Assembly: GCF_039930745.1 (NCBI RefSeq)
Contig: NZ_JBDTTH010000005.1
Location: 29,385-93,384 of the forward strand
Direction of reading: 5' to 3'
From: Polaromonas sp.
GTDB lineage: Bacteria; Pseudomonadota; Gammaproteobacteria; Burkholderiales; Burkholderiaceae_C
Length of the DNA stretch: 64,000 bases
Numbering within the stretch: position 1 is the stretch's first letter; each line of letters starts with the position of its first letter. This document shows positions 4,080-61,058 of the stretch, in pieces. A model generated the notes under the pieces. It was not told where the DNA came from, searched no databases, and saw only the letters and a list, made by a program, of their open reading frames with translations. The position numbers and the translations under genes were made by a program.

Positions 4080-5558
4080 ATGGACATGAAAACCTCCCCC
4101 ATTTCCCTGCTCAAAGACCCCAGCCTGTTCAAAACCGACGCCCTGATCAACGGCCAGTGGGTCCAGGGCGCGGCCCGTTTTGACGTCAACGACCCCGCCA
4201 CCGGCCTCAAACTCGCCGACGTGGCCAACCTGGGCGCCCAGGAGGCCGAAACCGCCATAGCCGCCGCCAACGCCGCCTGGCCGGCCTGGCGCAGCAAGAC
4301 CGGCAAAGAGCGCCATGCGATTTTGCTCAAGTGGTACCAGCTCCTGATGGCCAATCAGGAAGACCTGGGCCGCATCATGACCGCCGAGCAGGGCAAGCCC
4401 TTTGCGGAAGCCAAAGGCGAAATCGCCTACGGCGCGAGTTTTGTCGAGTGGTTTGCCGAAGAAGCCAAACGCGTCAACGGCGAAACCCTGCCCCAGTTCG
4501 ACAACAACCGCCGCCTGATGGTCTTGAAGCAGCCCATCGGCGTGTGCGCCGCCATCACCCCCTGGAACTTCCCGTTGGCCATGATCACCCGCAAGGTCGC
4601 CCCAGCGCTGGCCGCCGGTTGCCCGGTGGTCATCAAGCCTGCCGAACTGACCCCGCTGACCGCCCTGGCCGCCGCCGAGCTGGCTGTACGCGCCGGCATT
4701 CCGGCCGGCGTGCTCAATGTGCTAACCGCCGACAGCGCCAACTCGATTGCTGTCGGCAAGGTGTTCTGCGCCAGCGATATCGTGCGCCACATCAGCTTTA
4801 CCGGCTCGACAGAAGTGGGCCGCATCCTGATGGCGCAAAGCGCGCCGTCCATCAAGAAGCTGGCGCTGGAGTTGGGCGGCAACGCCCCCTTCATCGTGTT
4901 TGACGACGCCGACATCGACTCGGCCGTCGAAGGGGCGATGGCCAGCAAGTACCGCAACGCCGGCCAGACCTGTGTCTGCGCCAACCGCATTTATGTGCAG
5001 GACGGCGTGTACGACCAGTTCGTCGAGAAATTCGCGGCCAAGGTCAAGCTGCTCAAGGTTGGCAATGGCTTTGAAGACGGCGTGGTTCAGGGCCCGCTGA
5101 TCGAAGACGCGGCCGTTGACAAGGTGCAGCGCCATGTGGACGACGCGCTGGCCAAAGGCGGCAAGCTGCTGGCCGGCGGCAAAAAGCTCAAAGGCCAGTT
5201 CTTCGAGCCCACCGTGATCTCGGAGGCCACCGGCGACATGTTGTGCGCCAAAGAAGAAACCTTTGGCCCGTTTGCGCCGGTGTTTCGCTTCAAGGATGAG
5301 CAGGAGGCGATTGACGCCGCCAACAACACCGAGTTCGGTCTGGCCAGCTACTTCTACAGCCGCGACATCGGCCGGATCTACCGCGTCGCCGAGGCGCTGG
5401 AATACGGTATGGTCGGCATCAACGCTGGCGTGATTGCCACCGAACACGTGCCTTTTGGTGGCGTCAAGCAGTCCGGCCTGGGCCGGGAAGGCTCCAGCCA
5501 TGGCATGGAAGAGTACCTCGAGATGAAATACCTTTGCATGGGAGACATACAGAAATGA
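4080..5558 (+). CDS. gabD: NAD(P)+-dependent succinate-semialdehyde dehydrogenase
   Basis: ITPWNFP, FTGSTEVG, LELGGNAP, catalytic NAGQTCVC, EETFGP, PFGGVKQSGLGREGS. Confidence 0.92.
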   Translation: MDMKTSPISLLKDPSLFKTDALINGQWVQGAARFDVNDPATGLKLADVANLGAQEAETAIAAANAAWPAWRSKTGKERHAILLKWYQLLMANQEDLGRIMTAEQGKPFAEAKGEIAYGASFVEWFAEEAKRVNGETLPQFDNNRRLMVLKQPIGVCAAITPWNFPLAMITRKVAPALAAGCPVVIKPAELTPLTALAAAELAVRAGIPAGVLNVLTADSANSIAVGKVFCASDIVRHISFTGSTEVGRILMAQSAPSIKKLALELGGNAPFIVFDDADIDSAVEGAMASKYRNAGQTCVCANRIYVQDGVYDQFVEKFAAKVKLLKVGNGFEDGVVQGPLIEDAAVDKVQRHVDDALAKGGKLLAGGKKLKGQFFEPTVISEATGDMLCAKEETFGPFAPVFRFKDEQEAIDAANNTEFGLASYFYSRDIGRIYRVAEALEYGMVGINAGVIATEHVPFGGVKQSGLGREGSSHGMEEYLEMKYLCMGDIQK

Positions 5559-6004
5559 ACCGCAGAACCCTCTTGCAAGCCGGCATCGTCGGTGCTGCTG
5601 CCTTATCCACTCCGTTTTTGATAGCTGCTCACGCCCAGGGGACGGGGGCTGCAGGCCAAAAACGTCACAAACTTGTGATCCAGGTCAGCGACAATGACCC
5701 GGCCAAGTGGAACTTGGCCCTCAACAATGCCAAAAATGTGCAGGAAGACGTGGGCGCCGCCAACGTGGACATCGCCATCGTCGCCTACGGGCCGGGCATT
5801 GGCATGCTCAAGCTGGACTCGCCCACTGGTGGGCGAATTGCCGACGCCATGAAAGCCAATGTGCGCGTTGTCGCCTGCGAAAACACCATGCGCGGCCAGA
5901 AGCTGGGCAAGGACGACATGTTGCCCGCCATCAGCTACGTGCCGGCCGGCGTAACTGAAATCATGAAAAAACAGCAGGACGGCTGGGCTTACCTCCGGCC
6001 CTGA
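5555..6004 (+). CDS. DsrE-family protein with Tat-type signal peptide
   Basis: MNRRTLLQ twin-arginine leader with AHA cleavage site; LALNNAKN, VAYGPGI, VVACENTM, VPAGVTEI motifs; ATGA overlap with gabD stop. Confidence 0.75.
   Translation: MNRRTLLQAGIVGAAALSTPFLIAAHAQGTGAAGQKRHKLVIQVSDNDPAKWNLALNNAKNVQEDVGAANVDIAIVAYGPGIGMLKLDSPTGGRIADAMKANVRVVACENTMRGQKLGKDDMLPAISYVPAGVTEIMKKQQDGWAYLRP
5608..5661 (+). repeat. In-frame copy of the dispersed palindromic repeat inside the DsrE gene
   Basis: ATAGCTGCT-CAC-GCCC-N9-GGGC-TGCA-GGCCAA has the same blocks and spacing as the intergenic copies at 26802 and 30342. Confidence 0.7.
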
Positions 6005-6060: not shown

Positions 6061-6134
6061 GCGGGTGTAGTTCAATGGTAGAACTTTTGCTTCCCAAGCA
6101 AATAGCGTGGGTTCGATTCCCATCACCCGCTCCA
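6061..6134 (+). tRNA. tRNA-Gly (anticodon CCC)
   Basis: Acceptor GCGGGTG/CACCCGC, D stem GTTC/GAAC, anticodon arm TTTGC-TTCCCAA-GCAAA, T loop GTTCGATTC, U73 discriminator, encoded CCA. Confidence 0.96.
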
Positions 6135-6215
6135 CACATGGCTTGACGCCGATTGCAGCTCGACTCAATGCACACGCTGGTCCTGTGACAAGGAAATCAG
6201 CGGTTTTTGTTTTTG

Positions 6216-6273
6216 TGACAAGAATTTGAATAATCTTTATTATTCAATAAGTTAGCGTATTTCATTCTTGTCA
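6216..6273. promoter_or_regulatory. Inverted repeats upstream of the Fic gene (operator-like)
   Basis: TGACAAGAAT (6216-6225) / ATTCTTGTCA (6264-6273) flank the perfect palindrome TTGAATAAT-CTTT-ATTATTCAA (6226-6247). Confidence 0.45.
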
Positions 6274-6276
6274 ATC

Positions 6277-7428
6277 ATGCCAAAATCCACGCCCTCCGAG
6301 ATCGTTGCGCTGCTCATCACGGCTGGACCGGCAGGGCAGAGCCCCGAAGCGCTTGAGAAGCTACTGAGCCCTGTCAGCCGCTCAACGATCAACAGAAGAT
6401 TGGCTGAGCTGGTGAAAGCGGGCGCCATCAAGGCCGAAGGGGCCGGGCGCGCCACCCGCTATGTCTCAGCCTCACCATTCACACGCGCCGATATCGACGC
6501 GTACTTCAACATGCCATGGCAGCAACGTCCCGTGGCTTACTTCAAAGAAGAGCTCCTGGCGGCACTGCCCAACATCGATGCTGCCAAAGCACAACGCTGC
6601 GCGCAGATTCAGGCCATTGCCAACCCGATTGACAAGCGATACCTCTCGACTTTTCTAGTTGATTTTTCCTGGGGTTCGTCGGTGCTTGAAGGGGGCACCT
6701 ACTCTGCGCTGGATACCGAAGCGTTGATTCAATACGGGCAAAAAAACAAGGACAAACCGACGGCTGACGCCGTTCTTGTGCTCAACCACAAAAGAGCTGC
6801 CGAATATCTGTGGACGCACCGCGCACTTACCGTTGACAACGTCTGCGCCATGCATGCGCTGCTGACGGACGACCATGGGCTGGCAGAACTGGCGGACTCG
6901 GACCATTTTCTGCCCGCGCACCAAAGAGGCAGGCCCCGGGAGTTTGAAGACGTCACTCTGGGTGCGTCGGCCTACGTTCCACCGTTTCGGCCTGCCACGG
7001 CTTACATCGAAAAAGCGCTGGCGCAAATCATTACAAGCGCCAACACACTTCACCCCGTCCAGGCTGCGCTCTACCTGATGACGCGCATTCCCTACCTGCA
7101 AGCCTTTGCCAACGGCAACAAGCGCAGCTCACGGCTGGCTGCCAATGCCGCACTCATTTCGCACGGGCTCCTGCCCTTTTCTTTCGCAGACGTTGACAAA
7201 AATGATTACATCCGGGGGATTGCGGCGTTTTACGAGTTGGGCACCATACACATCGTCGAGCAAACTTTTATTCAGGGCTACGCGAAGTCCGTCGTACGCA
7301 GCAGCAACATCCCGGTCAGTATGCGAACGCTTGGCTTCAACGTGGAAGATGTGGCTCAGTCACTGGCTGACTTCATCAACACAGGCCGACAGCCCACCGA
7401 CAAGTATGCGCGGCTGTTTCTGACTTGA
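6277..7428 (+). CDS. Fic-family protein with N-terminal winged-helix/HTH, non-canonical Fic motif
   Basis: N-terminal VSRSTINRRLAELVKAGAIKAEGAGRATRY; FSWGSSVLEG; Fic motif YLQAFANGNKRSSR. ATG at 6277 (TTG at 6268 is an alternative). Confidence 0.82.
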   Translation: MPKSTPSEIVALLITAGPAGQSPEALEKLLSPVSRSTINRRLAELVKAGAIKAEGAGRATRYVSASPFTRADIDAYFNMPWQQRPVAYFKEELLAALPNIDAAKAQRCAQIQAIANPIDKRYLSTFLVDFSWGSSVLEGGTYSALDTEALIQYGQKNKDKPTADAVLVLNHKRAAEYLWTHRALTVDNVCAMHALLTDDHGLAELADSDHFLPAHQRGRPREFEDVTLGASAYVPPFRPATAYIEKALAQIITSANTLHPVQAALYLMTRIPYLQAFANGNKRSSRLAANAALISHGLLPFSFADVDKNDYIRGIAAFYELGTIHIVEQTFIQGYAKSVVRSSNIPVSMRTLGFNVEDVAQSLADFINTGRQPTDKYARLFLT

Positions 7429-7453: not shown

Positions 7454-7517
7454 TTCAATGGCAGAACGGCAGCTTCCCAAGCTTCATACGAGGGTTCGAT
7501 TCCCTTCACCCGCTCCA
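7454..7517 (+). pseudogene. 5'-truncated tRNA-Gly(CCC)-like copy
   Basis: 64 nt from the D arm to CCA, 51/64 identical to the tRNA at 6071-6134. The upstream TGGAGGC cannot pair with the 3' acceptor strand CACCCGC, and the anticodon stem has one mismatch. Confidence 0.8.
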
Positions 7518-7551
7518 AACGACAACGCCTACTCGCGAAACATCCCTGGGT

Positions 7552-9390
7552 ATCGGCATAGGGGGCAGCCATTATCGGCTGCGCCCCTGCCACACCACCC
7601 GGCATGCGGGTCCGCACCGGGCGGTTCGAGAAGTTGAGGTCAGCATAGTCGGGGAATGCCGAAGCGGTCGAAGTACGCATCGGTCAGCACCAGATTGACG
7701 TACTTGTCACTGTTGTACCACCAGCGCCGGGTAGATGCAGCCACTTGCGCGGCCACATCCACGGAGGCCCCCAGAGCCCGAAGCTCCCGGAACACCGTTG
7801 TTCCCCGACGCCAGAACTTCAGCTGGATCGCTCTGAGCCGGTGCCGCAGCCACTTGTCCAAGGCGCGGAACGTGCTGGGCGTTTGCGTTAGCTGGAAGTA
7901 CGCCTTCCAGCCTGGCATGAAGGCCTGCAGCGCCGCTCCAATTTCCTGAAGGCTGCGTCCGGTCTGCCGTCGGGTGAGTTGCCTCACCCTCTGGCGGTAA
8001 CGTTTGAGCGCCGCATCGGCCACGTCCCGGCGTACCTTGCCCGTAGGCGAGAGCCAGAAGCAGTAACCGAGGAACTTGCGTTTCCACACAGGTGCTACAG
8101 CCGTCTTGGCCTCATTGAGCGACAGCCGCAACCTCGCGTAGCAGCGTCTGAGTCCCGCCAGCACCCGCTGGCCTGAGGCGATGCTTTTAACGTAGACGTT
8201 GCAGTCGTCGGCGTAGCGCACAAATTTGTGCCCCCTGCGTTCGAGTTCGCGGTCCACCTCGTCAAGCATCACGTTGGCCAGCAGGGGCGACAGCGGCCCG
8301 CCTTGCGGCGTGCCCTCGTGGCGCTCCGTCTGTAGCCCACCGTCCATGATCCCGGCCTGAAGGTATCGGCGTATGAGCCGCAGCACCACCTTGTCGGTGA
8401 GGCGGCGGGCCAGCCGGTCCATCAGGATGTCGTGGTTGACGCGGTCAAAGAATTGCTCCAGGTCCACGTCCACCACCACCGCATAACCTTCCTGCACATA
8501 GCCGTGTGCCTGCAGGATCGCCCCGTGCGCGCCGCGCCCGGGCCGAAACCCGAAGCTGTGCTCGCTGAAGGTGGGGTCGATCACAGGCTGGAGCACCTGC
8601 AGTAGGGCTTGCTGAATCAGACGGTCGGTGACCGTGGGTATGCCCAACTCTCTCTTGCCGCCGCCCGGTTTGGGTATCTGCACGCGGCGTACCGGACTGG
8701 GCCGGTAGGTGCCGTCCTGCAGGCTTTGCCGGATGACGAGCCAGTGGGTTTTGAGGTACTCCCCGGTCTGCTCTACCGTGCGTCCATCGACGCCGGCGCT
8801 TCCCTTGTTGGCTTTGACGCGTTTCCACGCCATCGCCATATTCTGCTTTGCCAGAGCCTGCGCAAGCAGGTCTGACCCCCAGCTCGTTTGTTCATGCCGC
8901 GCCGTTGGTGATTCATCGCGCACGGACCCGCCTCGGGCTTCACTCGATGCGTAGTCCATTCGCTCTGCCGTCTCGGCAGACTTCTGATGCTGTTCACTTC
9001 CAAGCGACATGTCTCGTCACTGTCCTTCTCGTTCGGCCCTTCGCCGGGTTGCCCCGGCTACTATGGCCTCTGCTGACTTCCCGCTGCCGGTTGCCCGGTC
9101 ACCCTTTCAGGCGTGAGGCGGGATCTCCCCAGGTAAGAATGCACTCCTTCACCGCACAATCGCCGCATTTACGCCGCCCAATCCTTGACCACAAGAGCTT
9201 CGCAGTTTCTTGCCTGCTCGCCCTGATCGGCGTCGCCTCATATGCGATTCGTGTTCCTCGACTCGCGGTTTATGTTCCACGCTTCCTTCCCACACTCGGT
9301 TGCCCTCATGCAGTTGCGTTTCGCTTCGCTCGCTGTGGTCAGCTCGCGGGAGGACTTTCACCTCCAGGAGTGCGCCCATGCTGGGCGCAC
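7552..9390 (-). mobile_element. Class IIC group II intron (retroelement), apparently complete
   Basis: Minus strand starts GTGCGCCCAGCATGGGCGCAC at 9390. Domain V GAACCGCCCGGTGCGGACCCGCATGCCGGGTGGTGT has the CGC triad. Domain VI ends CCCCTATGCCGAT at 7552. The insertion follows a terminator hairpin plus T7. Confidence 0.93.
7640..9010 (-). CDS. ltrA: Group II intron reverse transcriptase/maturase (no endonuclease domain)
   Basis: RT0 NKGSAGVDG, IPKPGGGKRELGIPTVTDRLIQQA, DLEQFFDRVNHD, GTPQGGPLSPLLAN, YADD and FLGY motifs, followed by domain X. Confidence 0.95.
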   Translation of the reverse strand: MSLGSEQHQKSAETAERMDYASSEARGGSVRDESPTARHEQTSWGSDLLAQALAKQNMAMAWKRVKANKGSAGVDGRTVEQTGEYLKTHWLVIRQSLQDGTYRPSPVRRVQIPKPGGGKRELGIPTVTDRLIQQALLQVLQPVIDPTFSEHSFGFRPGRGAHGAILQAHGYVQEGYAVVVDVDLEQFFDRVNHDILMDRLARRLTDKVVLRLIRRYLQAGIMDGGLQTERHEGTPQGGPLSPLLANVMLDEVDRELERRGHKFVRYADDCNVYVKSIASGQRVLAGLRRCYARLRLSLNEAKTAVAPVWKRKFLGYCFWLSPTGKVRRDVADAALKRYRQRVRQLTRRQTGRSLQEIGAALQAFMPGWKAYFQLTQTPSTFRALDKWLRHRLRAIQLKFWRRGTTVFRELRALGASVDVAAQVAASTRRWWYNSDKYVNLVLTDAYFDRFGIPRLC

Positions 9391-26576: not shown

Positions 26577-26801
26577 GGTTATTTTTTCCTTTCAGACTGC
26601 AGCAGCGCACGGGCGACCGGTGCGCTGCCAGCAAGCCGCCGAAATGGCGGCCAGAAAATTCATTGTGCACCTGTAATCCGCGCTGGCTGTAGTCTTCGTT
26701 CGCATGCCCGGGTAAGGTCTGCGTTTATTGAAAGATGCAGCTGCACAGCATCTTTCTCACCGCATGCAGCCATGGGATGGACTTCCGGCGGCCCATGCAG
26801 C

Positions 26802-26864
26802 AGCTATCAATTCAATAGCTGCTCGCGCCCGCGGTTATTGGGCCAATGGCCAAAATGACTCTCA
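26802..26864 (+). repeat. Dispersed palindromic (REP/MITE-like) repeat, intergenic copy A
   Basis: AGCTAT-N7-ATAGCT-GCT, GCCC-N9-GGGC, GGCCAA; 41/63 identical to the copy at 30342 without gaps. Confidence 0.75.
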
Positions 26865-30332: not shown

Positions 30333-30341
30333 GAATCGATT

Positions 30342-30404
30342 AGCTATATATTTGCTAGCTGCTTACGCCCGTCCATCAAGGGCTGGAGGCCAATTTGACC
30401 ATCA
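30342..30404 (+). repeat. Dispersed palindromic repeat, intergenic copy B (between convergent genes)
   Basis: AGCTAT-N7-CTAGCT-GCT, GCCC-N9-GGGC, GGCCAA with spacing identical to copy A. Confidence 0.75.
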
Positions 30405-30821
30405 ACTGACAATGATGCGCATCCAGTCCGGTAAGGTGGCGGCTTTCTGGGTGGGAAAGTCCACCCAGATCGTGGTGGCACCGCCAGCGGCATACATCAC
30501 GCCGGACTGGTCCGCCCGCTCCATCGTGCCCCATGTCTCGAATGTCGTGCGGCCCGGGTCGCTGGCATACATCTTCACCCGCACGTCGCCGGGGTATTCG
30601 AGCTGCCTGTAGAAGTTGCAGAAGGCGTTGACGATGACCGGTCCCTCGCCTTTCGGGTCCGGCACGCAGCCGATGGAATACATCCAGTCGATGCGGGCCG
30701 TTTCAAGGTAGCGGAAATAGCTCGCATTGTTGACATGGCCCATAGCGTCCATGTCGCCCCAGCGGATGGGGATGTTCATTTCAAAAACCAGTTTTTTCTT
30801 CTCGGGTATTTCAATTTTCAT
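30402..30821 (-). CDS. Acyl-CoA thioesterase (4HBT/YbgC family)
   Basis: IRWGDMDAMGHVNNASYFRYLETAR. Confidence 0.9.
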   Translation of the reverse strand: MKIEIPEKKKLVFEMNIPIRWGDMDAMGHVNNASYFRYLETARIDWMYSIGCVPDPKGEGPVIVNAFCNFYRQLEYPGDVRVKMYASDPGRTTFETWGTMERADQSGVMYAAGGATTIWVDFPTQKAATLPDWMRIIVS

Positions 30822-56307: not shown

Positions 56308-56330
56308 GACGGTTCAGCTACACTTGACGG

Positions 56331-56547
56331 GTCAGGAGAGAGTTTTCCTCGAGAAAACCGCCGAAGGCGCATGCGGCACCCCAATGGTGCTCTGAACGCT
56401 CAGGCAAAAGGACTGGCAAGCGCCGCCCGGCCGAACACCCGCCAGGCAGCGTTCCCTACTGGAGAGAGGCCCCCCCATGAGGCGGCCCACCGAAGGAGCA
56501 AACCTGCATCGCCAGGCGAATCTCTCAGGTAAAGAGGACAGCAGGGG
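56331..56547 (+). ncRNA. Tandem glycine riboswitch
   Basis: Two aptamers, each GGAGAG...CCGAAGG...CTCAGG...GGAC (about 56331-56413 and 56454-56547), directly upstream of gcvT. Confidence 0.93.
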
Positions 56548-56594
56548 CAGCCCATGGCTCATGGCCATGTTGTATGTTTGCCCCGGAGAACGCC

Positions 56595-58160: not shown

Positions 58161-61058
58161 ATGCTGATGCCAACCGCCAAGCCCCTGCGCGAGCTTGAAA
58201 ACGCTTCCGAGTTCATTGCCCGCCATATCGGCATCGATGATGCTGACGAAGCACACATGCTCAACGTGGTGGGCTCTGCCTCGCGGCGTGAACTCATCGA
58301 CGGTATCGTGCCGCGTAGCATCGCACGGCGCAATGCCATGGCGATTCCGGCATCCGCCACCGAAGCCCAGGCCTTGGCAGAGCTGAAGGCAATGGCTGAA
58401 AGGAACAAGGTGTTCAAGAGCTTTATCGGCCAAGGCTATTACGGCACGCACACACCCGGTGTGATCCTTCGCAACATCCTGGAAAACCCCGCCTGGTACA
58501 CCGCCTACACGCCTTACCAGGCTGAAATTTCACAGGGCCGTATGGAGGCGCTGGTCAACTTCCAGACCATGGTCTGCGACCTGACCGGCATGCCGATTGC
58601 AAACGCCTCCATGCTGGACGAGGCCACCGCCGCCGCTGAAGCCATGACCCTGGCCAAACGCAGTGTCAAGAGCAAGAGCAATGTCTTCATCGTGGCTGGC
58701 GATTGCCATCCGCAAACCATCGAGGTCATCCAAACCCGCGCCAGACCGCTGGGCATTGAGGTCAAGGTCAGCACCGCCGCCGTGACCGTGCCGCAGCTGA
58801 TGGCTGAGGGCAATTACTTCGGCGTGCTGGCCCAGTACCCGGCCACCACAGGCAGCATTCATGACTTGCGCCCCCTGGCTGGACAAGCCCATGTAGATGG
58901 GGCAGCGCTCTGCGTCGCTGCCGACCTGCTGGCACTCACGCTGCTGGCGCCTCCCGGTGAATGGGACGCCGACATCGTGCTGGGCAGCACCCAGCGCTTT
59001 GGCGTGGCCATGGGCAACGGCGGCCCCCATGCTGCCTACCTGGCCTGTCGCGATGAATACAAACGCTCCCTGCCCGGCCGTCTGGTGGGCGTCAGCGTCG
59101 ATGTGCACGGCAACCCGACCTACCGCCTGGCACTGCAAACCCGCGAGCAACACATCCGCCGCGAAAAGGCCACCTCCAACATCTGCACGGCCCAGGTGCT
59201 GCCGGCCGTGCTGGCCAGCATGTACGCGGTGTACCACGGCCCGCAAGGCCTCAAGCGCATCGCGCAGCGCGTAGCCAGCTACACCGCCATTTTTGCGCGC
59301 GGCATGCAGCAGATGGGTTACGAGATAACTAACGCCAGCGCCTTCGACTCGGTCACCATCAAGACAGGAGATGCTACACAATTGATAGCTGATCGCGCTC
59401 ACCAGTCGGAGGCGAACCTGCGATATCGCTTGAACAATCACTTGGGCGTTTCGCTCGACGAAACCACCACGCGCGAAGACCTGGAAATGCTCTGGTCCTT
59501 CTTTGTCAAACCAGGCAAGCCCATGCCGCGCCTGAGCGATTTCGAAAAAGGCGTTGAGCCGCTGATCCCCGAAGAGCTGCGCCGCACCACGCCATTCCTC
59601 ACGCACCCGGTGTTCAACACGCACCATTCCGAAACTAGCATGTTGCGCTACATCCGCATGCTCAGCGACAAGGACTTGGCACTGGACCGTAGCATGATCC
59701 CGCTCGGCAGCTGCACCATGAAGCTCAACGCGACCAGCGAGATGATTCCCGTCACCTGGCCCGAGTTCGCCAACATCCACCCCTTTGCCCCGCAAGAGCA
59801 ACTGCAAGGCTATGCCGATCTTGACCGGCAACTGCGCGAGTGGCTTTGCCAGGCCACAGGTTACGCCGGCATCAGCCTGCAGCCCAACGCCGGTTCCCAG
59901 GGCGAATACGCCGGCCTGCTGGTCATCAAAGCCTTCCATGAGGCACAAGGCCAGGGCCACCGCAACATCTGCCTGATTCCCTCATCGGCCCATGGCACCA
60001 ATCCGGCCAGCGCGCAAATGGCCGGCATGACGGTGGTGGTGACAGCCTGCGATGCGCAGGGCAATGTGGACATGGCCGACCTGAAGGCCAAGTGCGAGCA
60101 ACACAGCGCCAATCTGTCCTGCATGATGATCACCTACCCCAGCACGCACGGCGTGTTTGAAACACGGGTGAAAGAGCTTTGCGCACTGGTGCATTCGCAC
60201 GGCGGCCGGGTCTATGTCGACGGCGCCAACATGAACGCACTGGTCGGCGTGGCCGCACCGGGTGAGTTTGGCGGCGACGTGAGCCACCTGAACCTGCACA
60301 AGACCTTCTGCATTCCGCACGGCGGCGGCGGCCCCGGTGTCGGGCCCGTCTGCGTCGTGGCCGACCTTGTGCCTTTCCTGCCTGGCCATGCCACCGCGGG
60401 GTTTCCGGTCAATGGCGTGGGCGCCATATCAGCAGCGCCTCTTGGCAATGCGGCCGTGTTGCCTATCAGCTGGATGTACTGCCGCATGATGGGCGCAGAA
60501 GGCCTGCAACAGGCTACCGAGATCGCCATCCTGAGCGCCAACTACATCAGCGCACGCCTGAAAGACCGCTACCCGACGCTGTACGCCAGCGAGAATGGCC
60601 ATGTGGCGCACGAATGCATTCTGGATCTGCGCCCGCTGAAGGAAACCAGCGGCGTCAGCGCCGAAGACGTGGCCAAACGCCTGATGGACTACGGCTTTCA
60701 CGCGCCGACACTCAGCTTCCCGGTGCCCGGCACGCTGATGGTCGAACCCACCGAAAGCGAGACCCTGGCCGAGCTGGACCGTTTCATCAACGCCATGATC
60801 GCCATCCGTGAAGAGATCCGCAAGGTTGAGGCGGGGCACTGGCCGCAGGACAACAATCCGCTCAAACACGCACCACACACCGCAGCCAGCCTGCTGGGTG
60901 CCGAGTGGGACCGGCCGTATTCGCGCGAAACCGGCGCCTTTCCGCTGGCCACGCTCAAGCAGGTCAAGTACTGGCCGCCGGTGGGCCGGGTGGACAACGT
61001 ATATGGCGACCGCAACCTGTTCTGCAGCTGCGTGCCGGTGAGCGATTACGCCAGCTGA
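58161..61058 (+). CDS. gcvP: Glycine dehydrogenase (decarboxylating) P protein
   Basis: [36 protein letters not shown] lysine [15 protein letters not shown]. Confidence 0.97.
59372..59416 (+). repeat. Degenerate in-frame copy of the dispersed repeat inside gcvP
   Basis: TGCTAC-N7-ATAGCTGATCGCGC; same frame as the DsrE copy; right half eroded. Confidence 0.45.

What the first reader, a model, noticed from the sequence alone, without database searches (positions are those of the whole stretch)
5608..5661. The same repeat is translated in-frame at the signal-peptide cleavage site of a DsrE protein
Seen: ATAGCTGCTCACGCCC-N9-GGGCTGCAGGCCAA matches intergenic copy B at 28 of 38 aligned positions with identical spacing. 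It reads ATA GCT GCT CAC GCC CAG..., encoding IAAHAQGTGAAGQK, which includes the A-H-A cleavage motif and the linker to the mature domain. The ATA codon is unusual for a high-GC genome. Known: Rickettsia palindromic elements show that repeats can be exapted inside proteins. Inference: a non-coding repeat has been domesticated as part of an export signal.
Basis: partly seen in the sequence, partly recalled or inferred. Interest (0 to 1): 0.65.

Follow-up and report, generated by a model that had tools for sequence, protein, structure and literature searches.

The report
Genome-wide DNA motif inside DsrE signal peptide
A 69-base DNA motif present about 600 times in this Polaromonas genome also lies in frame inside the export signal of a small periplasmic DsrE-family protein; the motif did not create that signal, but it is an old copy of an almost undescribed DNA signal that is preserved even inside genes, against codon preference.

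Summary
Window 5607-5674 is a full-length copy (32.5 bits, genome-wide E 2e-7) of a ~69-nt dispersed motif with about 620 copies in this genome. It is translated in frame as the end of the Tat signal peptide, the AHA|Q cleavage site and the linker of a DsrE-family protein.

The "domesticated insert" reading is only partly supported. The same block sits at the same place in DsrE orthologues from 11 GTDB genera, but only in genomes that carry the family. Homologues in family-free genomes have an equivalent RR...AxA-Q...K signal that is 0-7 residues shorter, not 23. So the export signal predates the motif.

The DNA is held to the motif against codon bias:
- GC3 is 0.46 in the segment and 0.80 elsewhere in the gene.
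- Motif-required A/T third bases are kept in 88% of motif-bearing orthologues and 21% of motif-free ones.

About 90 other copies lie in frame inside ORFs such as LeuRS, PurL, PurK, DapF and MetH, 28 of them in the DsrE frame. Their net length change ranges from 0 to +20 residues.

How copies arise and what reads the motif are unknown. It has no Rfam family, no stable hairpin and no cognate RAYT.

The parts
4080..5558 (+). Upstream aldehyde dehydrogenase (GabD-like) gene. Its TGA stop overlaps the DsrE start codon (ATGA).
   Evidence: ORF list and sequence. The same C-terminal peptide ...YLC.GDIQK precedes DsrE in many orthologous loci.
5555..6004 (+). DsrE/DsrF-family protein gene, 149 aa, with an N-terminal Tat-type signal peptide.
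   Evidence: Pfam PF02635 at 32.2 bits, above its 22.7 cut-off. TAT_signal scores 16.9 bits, below its cut-off. The RR motif is kept in 29 of 30 aligned homologues. Close relatives are named 'DsrE family protein [Polaromonas sp.]'.
5561..5566 (+). Twin-arginine codons (MNRRTLLQAG) of the signal n-region, upstream of the motif.
   Evidence: Translation; conserved in orthologues.
5607..5674 (+). Full-length in-frame copy of the ~69-nt dispersed motif. It encodes STPFLIAAHAQGTGAAGQKRHKL.
   Evidence: nhmmer at 32.5 bits, E 1.9e-7 genome-wide, model positions 6-73 of 76. GC3 is 0.46 against 0.80 in the rest of the gene.
5609..5625 (+). Left module of the motif: ACTCC-N7-ATAGC, the family form GCTAY-N7-RTAGC.
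   Evidence: Position-wise family profile. Orthologues read GCTCC/GCTAC ... ATAGC/GTAGC.
5633..5649 (+). GCCC-N9-GGGC module. The 9-nt spacer is variable across the family.
   Evidence: The spacer is uninformative in the family profile.
5627..5638 (+). Codons A-H-A|Q, the predicted signal-peptidase I site. Here the copy departs from the motif consensus (TGC to CAC, CGT to CAG).
   Evidence: Translation. AxA-Q is kept in the motif-bearing orthologues and in most motif-free homologues. Cleavage itself is inferred, not shown.
26801..26864 (+). Intergenic family copy A.
   Evidence: nhmmer at 41.8 bits.
30338..30405 (+).
   Evidence: nhmmer at 58.6 bits.
59369..59404 (+). Weak half-copy (left part only) in frame inside the glycine dehydrogenase (GcvP-like) ORF, in the same frame as DsrE.
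   Evidence: nhmmer at 22.0 bits, E 3.7e-4, model positions 4-39.

Best explanation
Window 5607-5674 is an old, position-conserved, in-frame copy of a lineage-specific ~69-nt DNA motif. The motif consensus is ttGCTAT-N7-ATAGCTGCTTGCGCCCG-N6-AAGGGCTGGAGGCC-ATTT..., with about 620 copies in this genome.

The copy lies in the most permissive part of a periplasmic DsrE-family gene. That part covers the end of the Tat signal h-region, the AxA cleavage site and the Gly/Ala-rich linker.

The copy stands in place of pre-existing signal and linker codons, with a net gain of about 0-7 codons. It did not create the export signal. The peptide is a compromise:
- Where the signal peptide needs particular residues (A-x-A-Q), the protein wins.
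- At synonymous and tolerant positions, the DNA motif wins, against the genome's GC3 codon bias.

The motif is kept at the DNA level only in genomes that carry the genome-wide family. It is rewritten to ordinary GC-rich codons where the family is lost.

Shown: family membership, frame, orthologous conservation, co-occurrence with the family, the codon-bias violation, and pre-existence of the signal architecture.

Inferred: the family is a DNA-level recognition signal kept uniform by a genome-wide process (biased replacement or conversion, or selection by an unknown reader), not an RNA hairpin or an active RAYT-mobilised REP. How the copy first arrived, by length-neutral replacement or by insertion followed by trimming, is unresolved.
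For: Membership:
- 27 of 30 block positions match copy B, with no shuffle matching.
- The profile hit is 32.5 bits, E 1.9e-7 genome-wide.
- The reversed control pattern gives 0 hits in 61 genomes, against 165 strict copies here.

Orthology:
- The block scores 7-33 bits in 11 same-genus orthologues.
- It scores 9-27 bits in orthologues from other genera.

Co-occurrence:
It finds 0-1 copies in 7 genomes.
- All 13 sampled block-bearing DsrE orthologues lie in family-bearing genomes.
- All 5 orthologues from family-free genomes lack the block.

The signal predates the motif:
- Motif-free homologues read, for example, MQARRTFILALGASLLTPMAIAQTVAGAAGKANK-VVFQVSD.
- They align with only 3-7 gap residues.

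DNA-level maintenance:
- GC3 is 0.46 in the segment and 0.80 in the rest of the gene. Relative codon frequency is 0.27 against 0.52, Mann-Whitney p 4e-5.
- At the ten columns where the motif requires a third-position A/T, 88% of codons in 21 motif-bearing orthologues end in A/T. The figure is 21% in 9 motif-free homologues and 20% in the mature domain.
- Motif-bearing sisters L001/L002 differ at 14% of third positions in the segment, 24% in the mature domain and 53% in the adjacent N-terminus.
- The motif/no-motif sisters L091/L095 differ at 48% of segment sites against 11% in the mature domain.

Generality:
- 93 ORF-internal placements (92 distinct copies) have coding-like GC3 on both flanks. 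28 are in the DsrE frame, giving xIAAxAxxxRAGGxxD-type peptides.
- Orthologous copies in LeuRS and PurL show conserved cores and scrambled spacers.
- The PurK copy aligns without a gap to a native helix of solved homologues.

Not an RNA structure:
- No Rfam hit.
- Folding z-score is -0.35.
- There is no Watson-Crick covariation; only neighbouring A/T-tract columns co-vary.
Against: - The DsrE gene tree is poorly resolved (14 of 27 inner branches are open). It is therefore not proven that the motif-free homologues L104-L110 are outgroups rather than decayed descendants.
- Some genic copies are net insertions: MetH +20 aa, DapF and PurL +11. A classic insertion followed by trimming therefore remains possible for DsrE.
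- G014 and G017 carry the family, yet their non-syntenic DsrE copies lack the block.
- Third-position identity at high-information motif sites (0.675) is only modestly above that of the mature domain (0.61).
- No reader protein, uptake bias or conversion tract has been demonstrated.
- Signal-peptide cleavage at AHA|Q is predicted only. The Pfam TAT_signal score is below its cut-off.
Confidence: 0.68

Rival explanations
1. Classic RPE-like event. A mobile 69-bp element inserted in frame into the ancestral DsrE signal region, adding 23 codons. It supplied the present c-region and AxA site. Later deletions trimmed now-redundant native residues. Motif-free versions are decayed and shortened descendants.
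For: - The element is 69 nt, which is 23 codons, and is stop-free in this frame.
- MetH shows a net +20 aa at its copy relative to E. coli MetH. DapF and PurL show +11.
- The motif-free L009, L010 and L095 are nested among motif-bearing orthologues and look like shortened, GC-rich versions of the same peptide.
Against: - No DsrE homologue shows the expected 23-residue difference. The differences are 0-7.
- More distant homologues from family-free genomes already have RR...AxA-Q...K signals.
- The PurK copy replaces a native helix residue for residue.
- No mobilising enzyme is linked to the motif.
Confidence: 0.22
2. The motif is untranslated here. The true DsrE start is the in-frame GTG at 5675, the upstream open frame is fortuitous, and the motif is simply an intergenic copy downstream of gabD.
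For: - An in-frame GTG exists at 5675, immediately after the motif.
- The motif lies about 50 nt after the gabD stop, a typical place for intergenic copies.
Against: - The upstream frame is open and encodes a conserved MNRR...AxA-Q signal in 21 motif-bearing orthologues.
- All indels in those orthologues are multiples of three.
- Motif-free homologues also have N-terminal signals, so the family is exported.
- Public annotations call the 149-150 aa form.
Confidence: 0.03
3. Chance or convergent resemblance. Ala-rich signal peptides happen to spell GCTGCT...GCC...GGGGCTGCAGGC.
For: The peptide is low-complexity and Ala/Gly-rich, and similar peptides occur in motif-free homologues.
Against: - Genome-wide E is 1.9e-7, with 0 control hits in 61 genomes.
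- The match relies on rare A/T-ending codons (ATA 4.8%, GCT 8.7%, TTG 10.8%), which motif-free homologues do not use.
- The match extends into both flanks of the reported stretch.
Confidence: 0.01

Closest known systems
Rickettsia palindromic elements (RPE; Ogata et al., as summarised in PMC10969869)
   Same: A dispersed short repeat found many times in frame inside unrelated, functional protein genes, translated as part of the protein.
   Different: - RPEs are about 150-bp insertions that add a peptide segment.
- Here the DsrE copy adds only 0-7 residues, and the PurK copy adds none.
- This motif is not a stable palindrome.
- Copies stay at orthologous sites across genera and are held to the consensus against codon bias.
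DNA uptake signal sequences (USS of Pasteurellaceae, DUS of Neisseriaceae); comparison from general knowledge
   Same: - Hundreds of copies in both orientations (79 forward, 86 reverse strict copies).
- Lineage-specific.
- Many copies lie inside genes in a few preferred frames, some without indels.
- GC core plus A/T tracts.
- Lost together with the genome-wide family.
   Different: - The motif is 69 nt and about 55 bits, against 9-12 nt cores.
- Some copies are clear net insertions (MetH +20 aa).
- No evidence here for competence-linked uptake or for a receptor.
REP/BIME elements mobilised by RAYT (TnpA-REP) transposases; GTAG-tagged REPs (PMC3733652)
   Same: - High copy number, mostly intergenic and close to gene ends.
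- Carries RTAGC/GCTAY tags resembling the GTAG tag.
- A single RAYT-like Y1_Tnp gene exists in the genome.
   Different: - The RAYT-like gene is flanked by a different repeat (GGGGTCAG type), not by this motif.
- That gene is also present in motif-free genomes G001, G009 and G224.
- Hairpin propensity is weak: mean z -1.3 for the family and -0.35 for the DsrE copy.
- About 15% of copies are inside ORFs.
Spaced motif ATAGCT(N)22CAAAAG of Polaromonas naphthalenivorans CJ2 (PMC5217627)
   Same: Very probably the same family. It shares the ATAGCT core, has 125 copies with 14% in genes, and is often about 50 bp from gene ends.
   Different: It is only a statistical listing. The paper gives no full-length element, no orthology, no coding-frame analysis and no function.
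BRE, the Beta-proteobacterial repeat element (PMC3110155)
   Same: A betaproteobacterial dispersed repeat also reported in Polaromonas sp. JS666, with some copies entirely within coding sequences.
   Different: BRE is 75-91 bp, 69% GC and often in tandem arrays. The present motif is AT-richer, about 69 nt and non-tandem. I did not compare the sequences directly, because the BRE consensus is not in the text held.

Membership tests
Polaromonas-type ~69-nt dispersed motif family (this genome's repeat) | Significant full-length match to a profile built from other copies | tested here: met
   32.5 bits, E 1.9e-7 for the whole genome, model positions 6-73 of 76. The DsrE copy was excluded from the profile.
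Polaromonas-type ~69-nt dispersed motif family (this genome's repeat) | The block occurs only where the genome-wide family occurs | tested here: met
   13 of 13 block-bearing orthologues lie in family-bearing genomes. 5 of 5 orthologues from family-free genomes lack the block.
Rickettsia palindromic element-like in-frame insertion | The element adds its own length of peptide relative to orthologues without it | tested here: not met
   Motif-free DsrE homologues are 0-7 residues shorter in this region, not 23.
Rickettsia palindromic element-like in-frame insertion | In frame, stop-free and translated with the host protein | tested here: met
   The frame is open from 5555 to 6004 and conserved in 21 orthologues. 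Translation itself is not shown experimentally.
REP/RAYT system | The cognate RAYT gene is flanked by the repeat, and its presence tracks the repeat | tested here: not met
   The single Y1_Tnp gene (G000 C3:27938-28654) has no motif copy within 3.8 kb. It is also present in motif-free G001, G009 and G224.
REP/RAYT system | Stable imperfect palindrome (hairpin as ssDNA or RNA) | tested here: inconclusive
   Short GCTAT/ATAGC and GCCC/GGGC complements exist. However, the DsrE copy folds at z -0.35, the family mean z is -1.3, and there is no base-pair covariation.
DNA uptake signal sequences (USS/DUS) | Preferential uptake of motif-bearing DNA by the competence machinery | not testable with these tools
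   Needs uptake or transformation assays.
DNA uptake signal sequences (USS/DUS) | Genic copies arise by substitution, without indels | tested here: inconclusive
   Net change at genic copies is PurK 0, DsrE 0-7, carboxyltransferase +7, DapF +11, PurL +11 and MetH +20 residues.
Tat (twin-arginine) signal peptide | RR motif, hydrophobic h-region and AxA c-region at the N-terminus | tested here: inconclusive
   MNRRTLLQAG...AHA|Q is visible and conserved. Pfam TAT_signal scores 16.9 bits, below its 22.7 cut-off. There is no NCBIfam hit. Export was not tested.
DsrE/DsrF-like family (PF02635) | Domain match above the curated cut-off | tested here: met
   32.2 bits against a 22.7 cut-off, residues 41-148.
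Any Rfam RNA family | Covariance-model match | tested here: not met
   No match at gathering scores in the window, and none at E up to 10 over 5500-5750 other than a spurious 8-bit lncRNA match.

The most novel reading that the evidence does not exclude
The 69-nt motif is the recognition sequence of a still-unknown genome-wide system. Candidates are a self-DNA or uptake-type signal, or a sequence-directed conversion machinery. This system actively writes and maintains its site in the chromosome, including over protein-coding DNA. On this reading, the DsrE signal peptide, like segments of LeuRS, PurK, PurL and DapF, has an amino-acid sequence partly dictated by a DNA signal rather than by protein function.
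Probability: 0.3. Interest if true: 0.85.

Novelty: new variant of a known kind. Interest (0 to 1): 0.6.

Why it matters
The case shows a protein export signal whose codons serve two functions. One is the signal-peptide function. The other is a long DNA motif that the lineage preserves against its own codon bias.

More broadly, the family has the following properties:
- about 600 copies per genome;
- presence in 11 GTDB genera;
- roughly 15% of copies inside genes;
- conservation at orthologous sites;
- erasure where the family is lost.

No described repeat class matches this cleanly. RPEs insert, USS are short, and REPs are extragenic and RAYT-linked.

It would also give a practical caution for annotation and for dN/dS analyses in these bacteria.

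Tried and rejected
- **Rfam.** No family covers the motif, either at gathering scores over the whole window or at permissive E-values over 5500-5750.
- **RNA hairpin or terminator idea.** The DsrE copy folds no better than shuffles (z -0.35). The family mean z is -1.3. Mutual information shows only neighbouring A/T-tract coupling and no stem covariation.
- **REP/RAYT idea.** The single Y1_Tnp gene is not flanked by the motif and also occurs in motif-free genomes.
- **BRE of Hot et al. 2011.** Its composition and length differ.
- **Mattes et al. 2008 (JS666 MITE).** The paper is not held.
- **NCBIfam naming of the protein.** No hit.
- **Strict pattern counts**. These underestimate the family outside the closest relatives. 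G020 and G136 scored 0 by pattern but 137 and at least 150 by model R1. The pattern tally was therefore not used for the absence calls.
- **DsrE gene tree.** It is too short to root the motif-free homologues confidently.
- **Search of this scan's notes by sequence.** It found nothing.

Full report
**Observation**

They lie in ORF 5555-6004, which encodes a 149-aa protein: MNRRTLLQAGIVGAAALSTPFLIAAHAQGTGAAGQKRHKLVIQVSD....

Pfam assigns residues 41-148 to DsrE/DsrF (PF02635, 32.2 bits) and sees a sub-threshold TAT_signal at residues 1-19. The ATG overlaps the stop of the upstream aldehyde dehydrogenase gene (ATGA).

A pattern made from the two conserved blocks finds only one other site in the window at up to 3 mismatches. 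That site is intergenic copy B at 30355-30393. No shuffle produced a match.

**The repeat family**

Aligning 335 genomic sites on the ATAGCTGC core shows an element of about 69-70 nt. It runs from -17 to +52 around the anchor T, which is window position 5622. The consensus is ttGCTAT-N7-ATAGCTGCTTGCGCCCG-N6-AAGGGCTGGAGGCC-ATTT-..-AAAA.

A profile built without the DsrE copy finds 620 copies at E below 1e-3 in the 4.8-Mb assembly. It matches the DsrE site over model positions 6-73 of 76, which is window 5607-5674, at 32.5 bits and E 1.9e-7.

Other properties of the family:
- The reversed control pattern has no hit in 61 genomes, against 165 strict hits here.
- It is not in Rfam.
- It does not fold unusually well.
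- It shows no base-pair covariation. The only coupled columns are neighbouring A/T-tract positions, which suggests a double-stranded DNA signal rather than an RNA.
- In the library searched, the only trace found is a statistical listing of ATAGCT(N)22CAAAAG in P. naphthalenivorans CJ2, with 125 copies and 14% in genes.
- BRE differs in composition and length.

**Orthologues**

DsrE orthologues of the same genus carry the block at the same place, at 7-33 bits. So do orthologues from other GTDB genera of the family at 63-75% protein identity, for example GCTACTTTTTTGGTAGCAGCAAGTGCCCAG...GGGGCTGGTGGC.

A sequence-only covariance model (R1) shows the family in 17 genomes of 11 genera. G356 has only 15. 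Seven genomes have 0-1 copies.

Every sampled block-bearing DsrE lies in a family-bearing genome (13 of 13). The five orthologues from family-free genomes (G224, G293, G106, G361, G360) lack the nucleotide block.

**Did the repeat create the export signal? No.**

Motif-free homologues have the same architecture. Examples:
- MQARRTFILALGASLLTPMAIAQTVAGAAGKANK-VVFQVSD
- MPDRRIFIIGLGGALIAPMAFAQSAATGAADKAHK-...

In the alignment they differ from the motif-bearing forms by only 3-7 gap residues. A plain 69-nt insertion would add 23.

At the cleavage site the DsrE copies depart from the motif consensus, which encodes I-A-A-C-A-R in this frame. They keep A-x-A-Q in all orthologues instead. Protein constraint therefore overrides the motif exactly where the signal peptidase needs it.

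The gene tree is too short to root firmly. An ancient insertion with later trimming therefore cannot be excluded, and it is kept as the main rival.

**DNA-level maintenance**

- The segment has GC3 of 0.46, against 0.80 in the rest of the gene and 0.80 genome-wide.
- It uses rare codons: ATA 4.8%, GCT 8.7%, ACT 5.7%, CTT 5.2% (Mann-Whitney p 4e-5).
- At the ten codon columns where the motif requires a third-position A/T, 88% of codons in 21 motif-bearing orthologues obey. The figure is 21% in nine motif-free homologues and 20% A/T overall in the mature domain.
- The motif-bearing sisters L001/L002 differ at 14% of third positions in the segment, 24% in the mature domain and 53% in the adjacent N-terminus.
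- The well-supported sister pair L091 (G207, at least 150 copies) and L095 (G356, 15 copies) differ at 48% of segment sites but only 11% of mature-domain sites.

The segment is thus frozen while the family is present and is rewritten wholesale when the family is lost.

**A general phenomenon**

In this genome, 93 ORF-internal placements (92 distinct copies) lie inside open frames of at least 330 nt that have coding-like GC1/2/3 on both flanks. Two frames dominate:
- the antisense frame, giving ...PPALxxRAQAAxxSIA (37 copies);
- the DsrE frame, giving ...xIAAxAxxxRAGGxxD (28 copies).

MetH carries dlIAANAQLAGAGGQKD, almost the DsrE peptide.

Homology confirms real genes around the copies in LeuRS, PurL, PurK, DapF, MetH and an acyl-CoA carboxyltransferase.

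In LeuRS and PurL the copy is at the same codons across the genus. The motif cores are conserved and the 9-nt spacers scrambled. Species without the family have GC-rich, slightly shorter equivalents.

Net length relative to solved homologues ranges widely:

| Protein | Net residues added |
|---|---|
| PurK | 0 (aligned residue for residue with a native helix) |
| Carboxyltransferase | +7 |
| DapF | +11 |
| PurL | +11 |
| MetH | +20 |

Both replacement and insertion therefore seem to occur.

The single RAYT-like gene is not flanked by the motif and also exists in motif-free genomes.

**Verdict**

It is wrong on origin: the export signal is older than the motif and was not supplied by it.

The DsrE case is one of about 90 in-frame copies of an almost undescribed, DNA-level motif family. 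How copies arise and what reads the motif remain unknown.

Earlier notes of this scan on other Polaromonas genomes reached similar readings. I treated them as leads and tested the claims independently here.

Noticed in passing
window 9036-9309 (-): Group II intron domains D1-D4 (RF01998 at 52.5 bits, RF02001 at 111 bits) next to the pilus operon region.
   Followed up: no
window 56323-56551 (+): Tandem glycine riboswitch aptamers upstream of the glycine-cleavage genes. This is the ordinary arrangement.
   Followed up: no
window 6071-6137 and 7454-7520: An intact tRNA (6061-6131) and a 79%-identical partial second tRNA copy bracket a Fic-domain-like ORF (6268-7428) just downstream of dsrE. This looks like an integration scar.
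   Followed up: no
window 26785-26830: Intergenic copy A has an extra, reversed left arm (nhmmer minus-strand hit 26823-26799, 15.5 bits). Together they form the palindrome GCAGCAGCTATCAATTCAATAGCTGCTC.
   Followed up: partly
G000 C3:27938-28654: A single RAYT-like Y1_Tnp gene is flanked by a different inverted repeat (AATTGGGGTCAG / CTGACCCCAATT). This suggests a second, unrelated REP-type family in the genome.
   Followed up: partly
G000 C5:11010-11077 (outside the window, same contig): A 46.8-bit motif copy lies in frame inside a long membrane-protein ORF that looks like ComEC/Rec2. The identification is by eye only and was not checked with a family search.
   Followed up: no
L016 (G008 C78) versus the window: A close relative (LeuRS 92%, PurL 95% identical) has a gabD-linked DsrE that is only 61% identical. 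It carries a lipoprotein-type signal (…FLTGC) instead of the Tat signal, so the gene at this locus has been exchanged or has diverged sharply.
   Followed up: partly
L018 (G016 C223) and L102 (G209 C279): In these two orthologues the DsrE signal region is interrupted by a stop or a frameshift within the motif. They may be pseudogenes or assembly errors.
   Followed up: no
G000 C7:49760-51177: Three motif copies lie in frame inside one 15.4-kb open frame, a giant Ala/Pro/Gln-rich protein.
   Followed up: no
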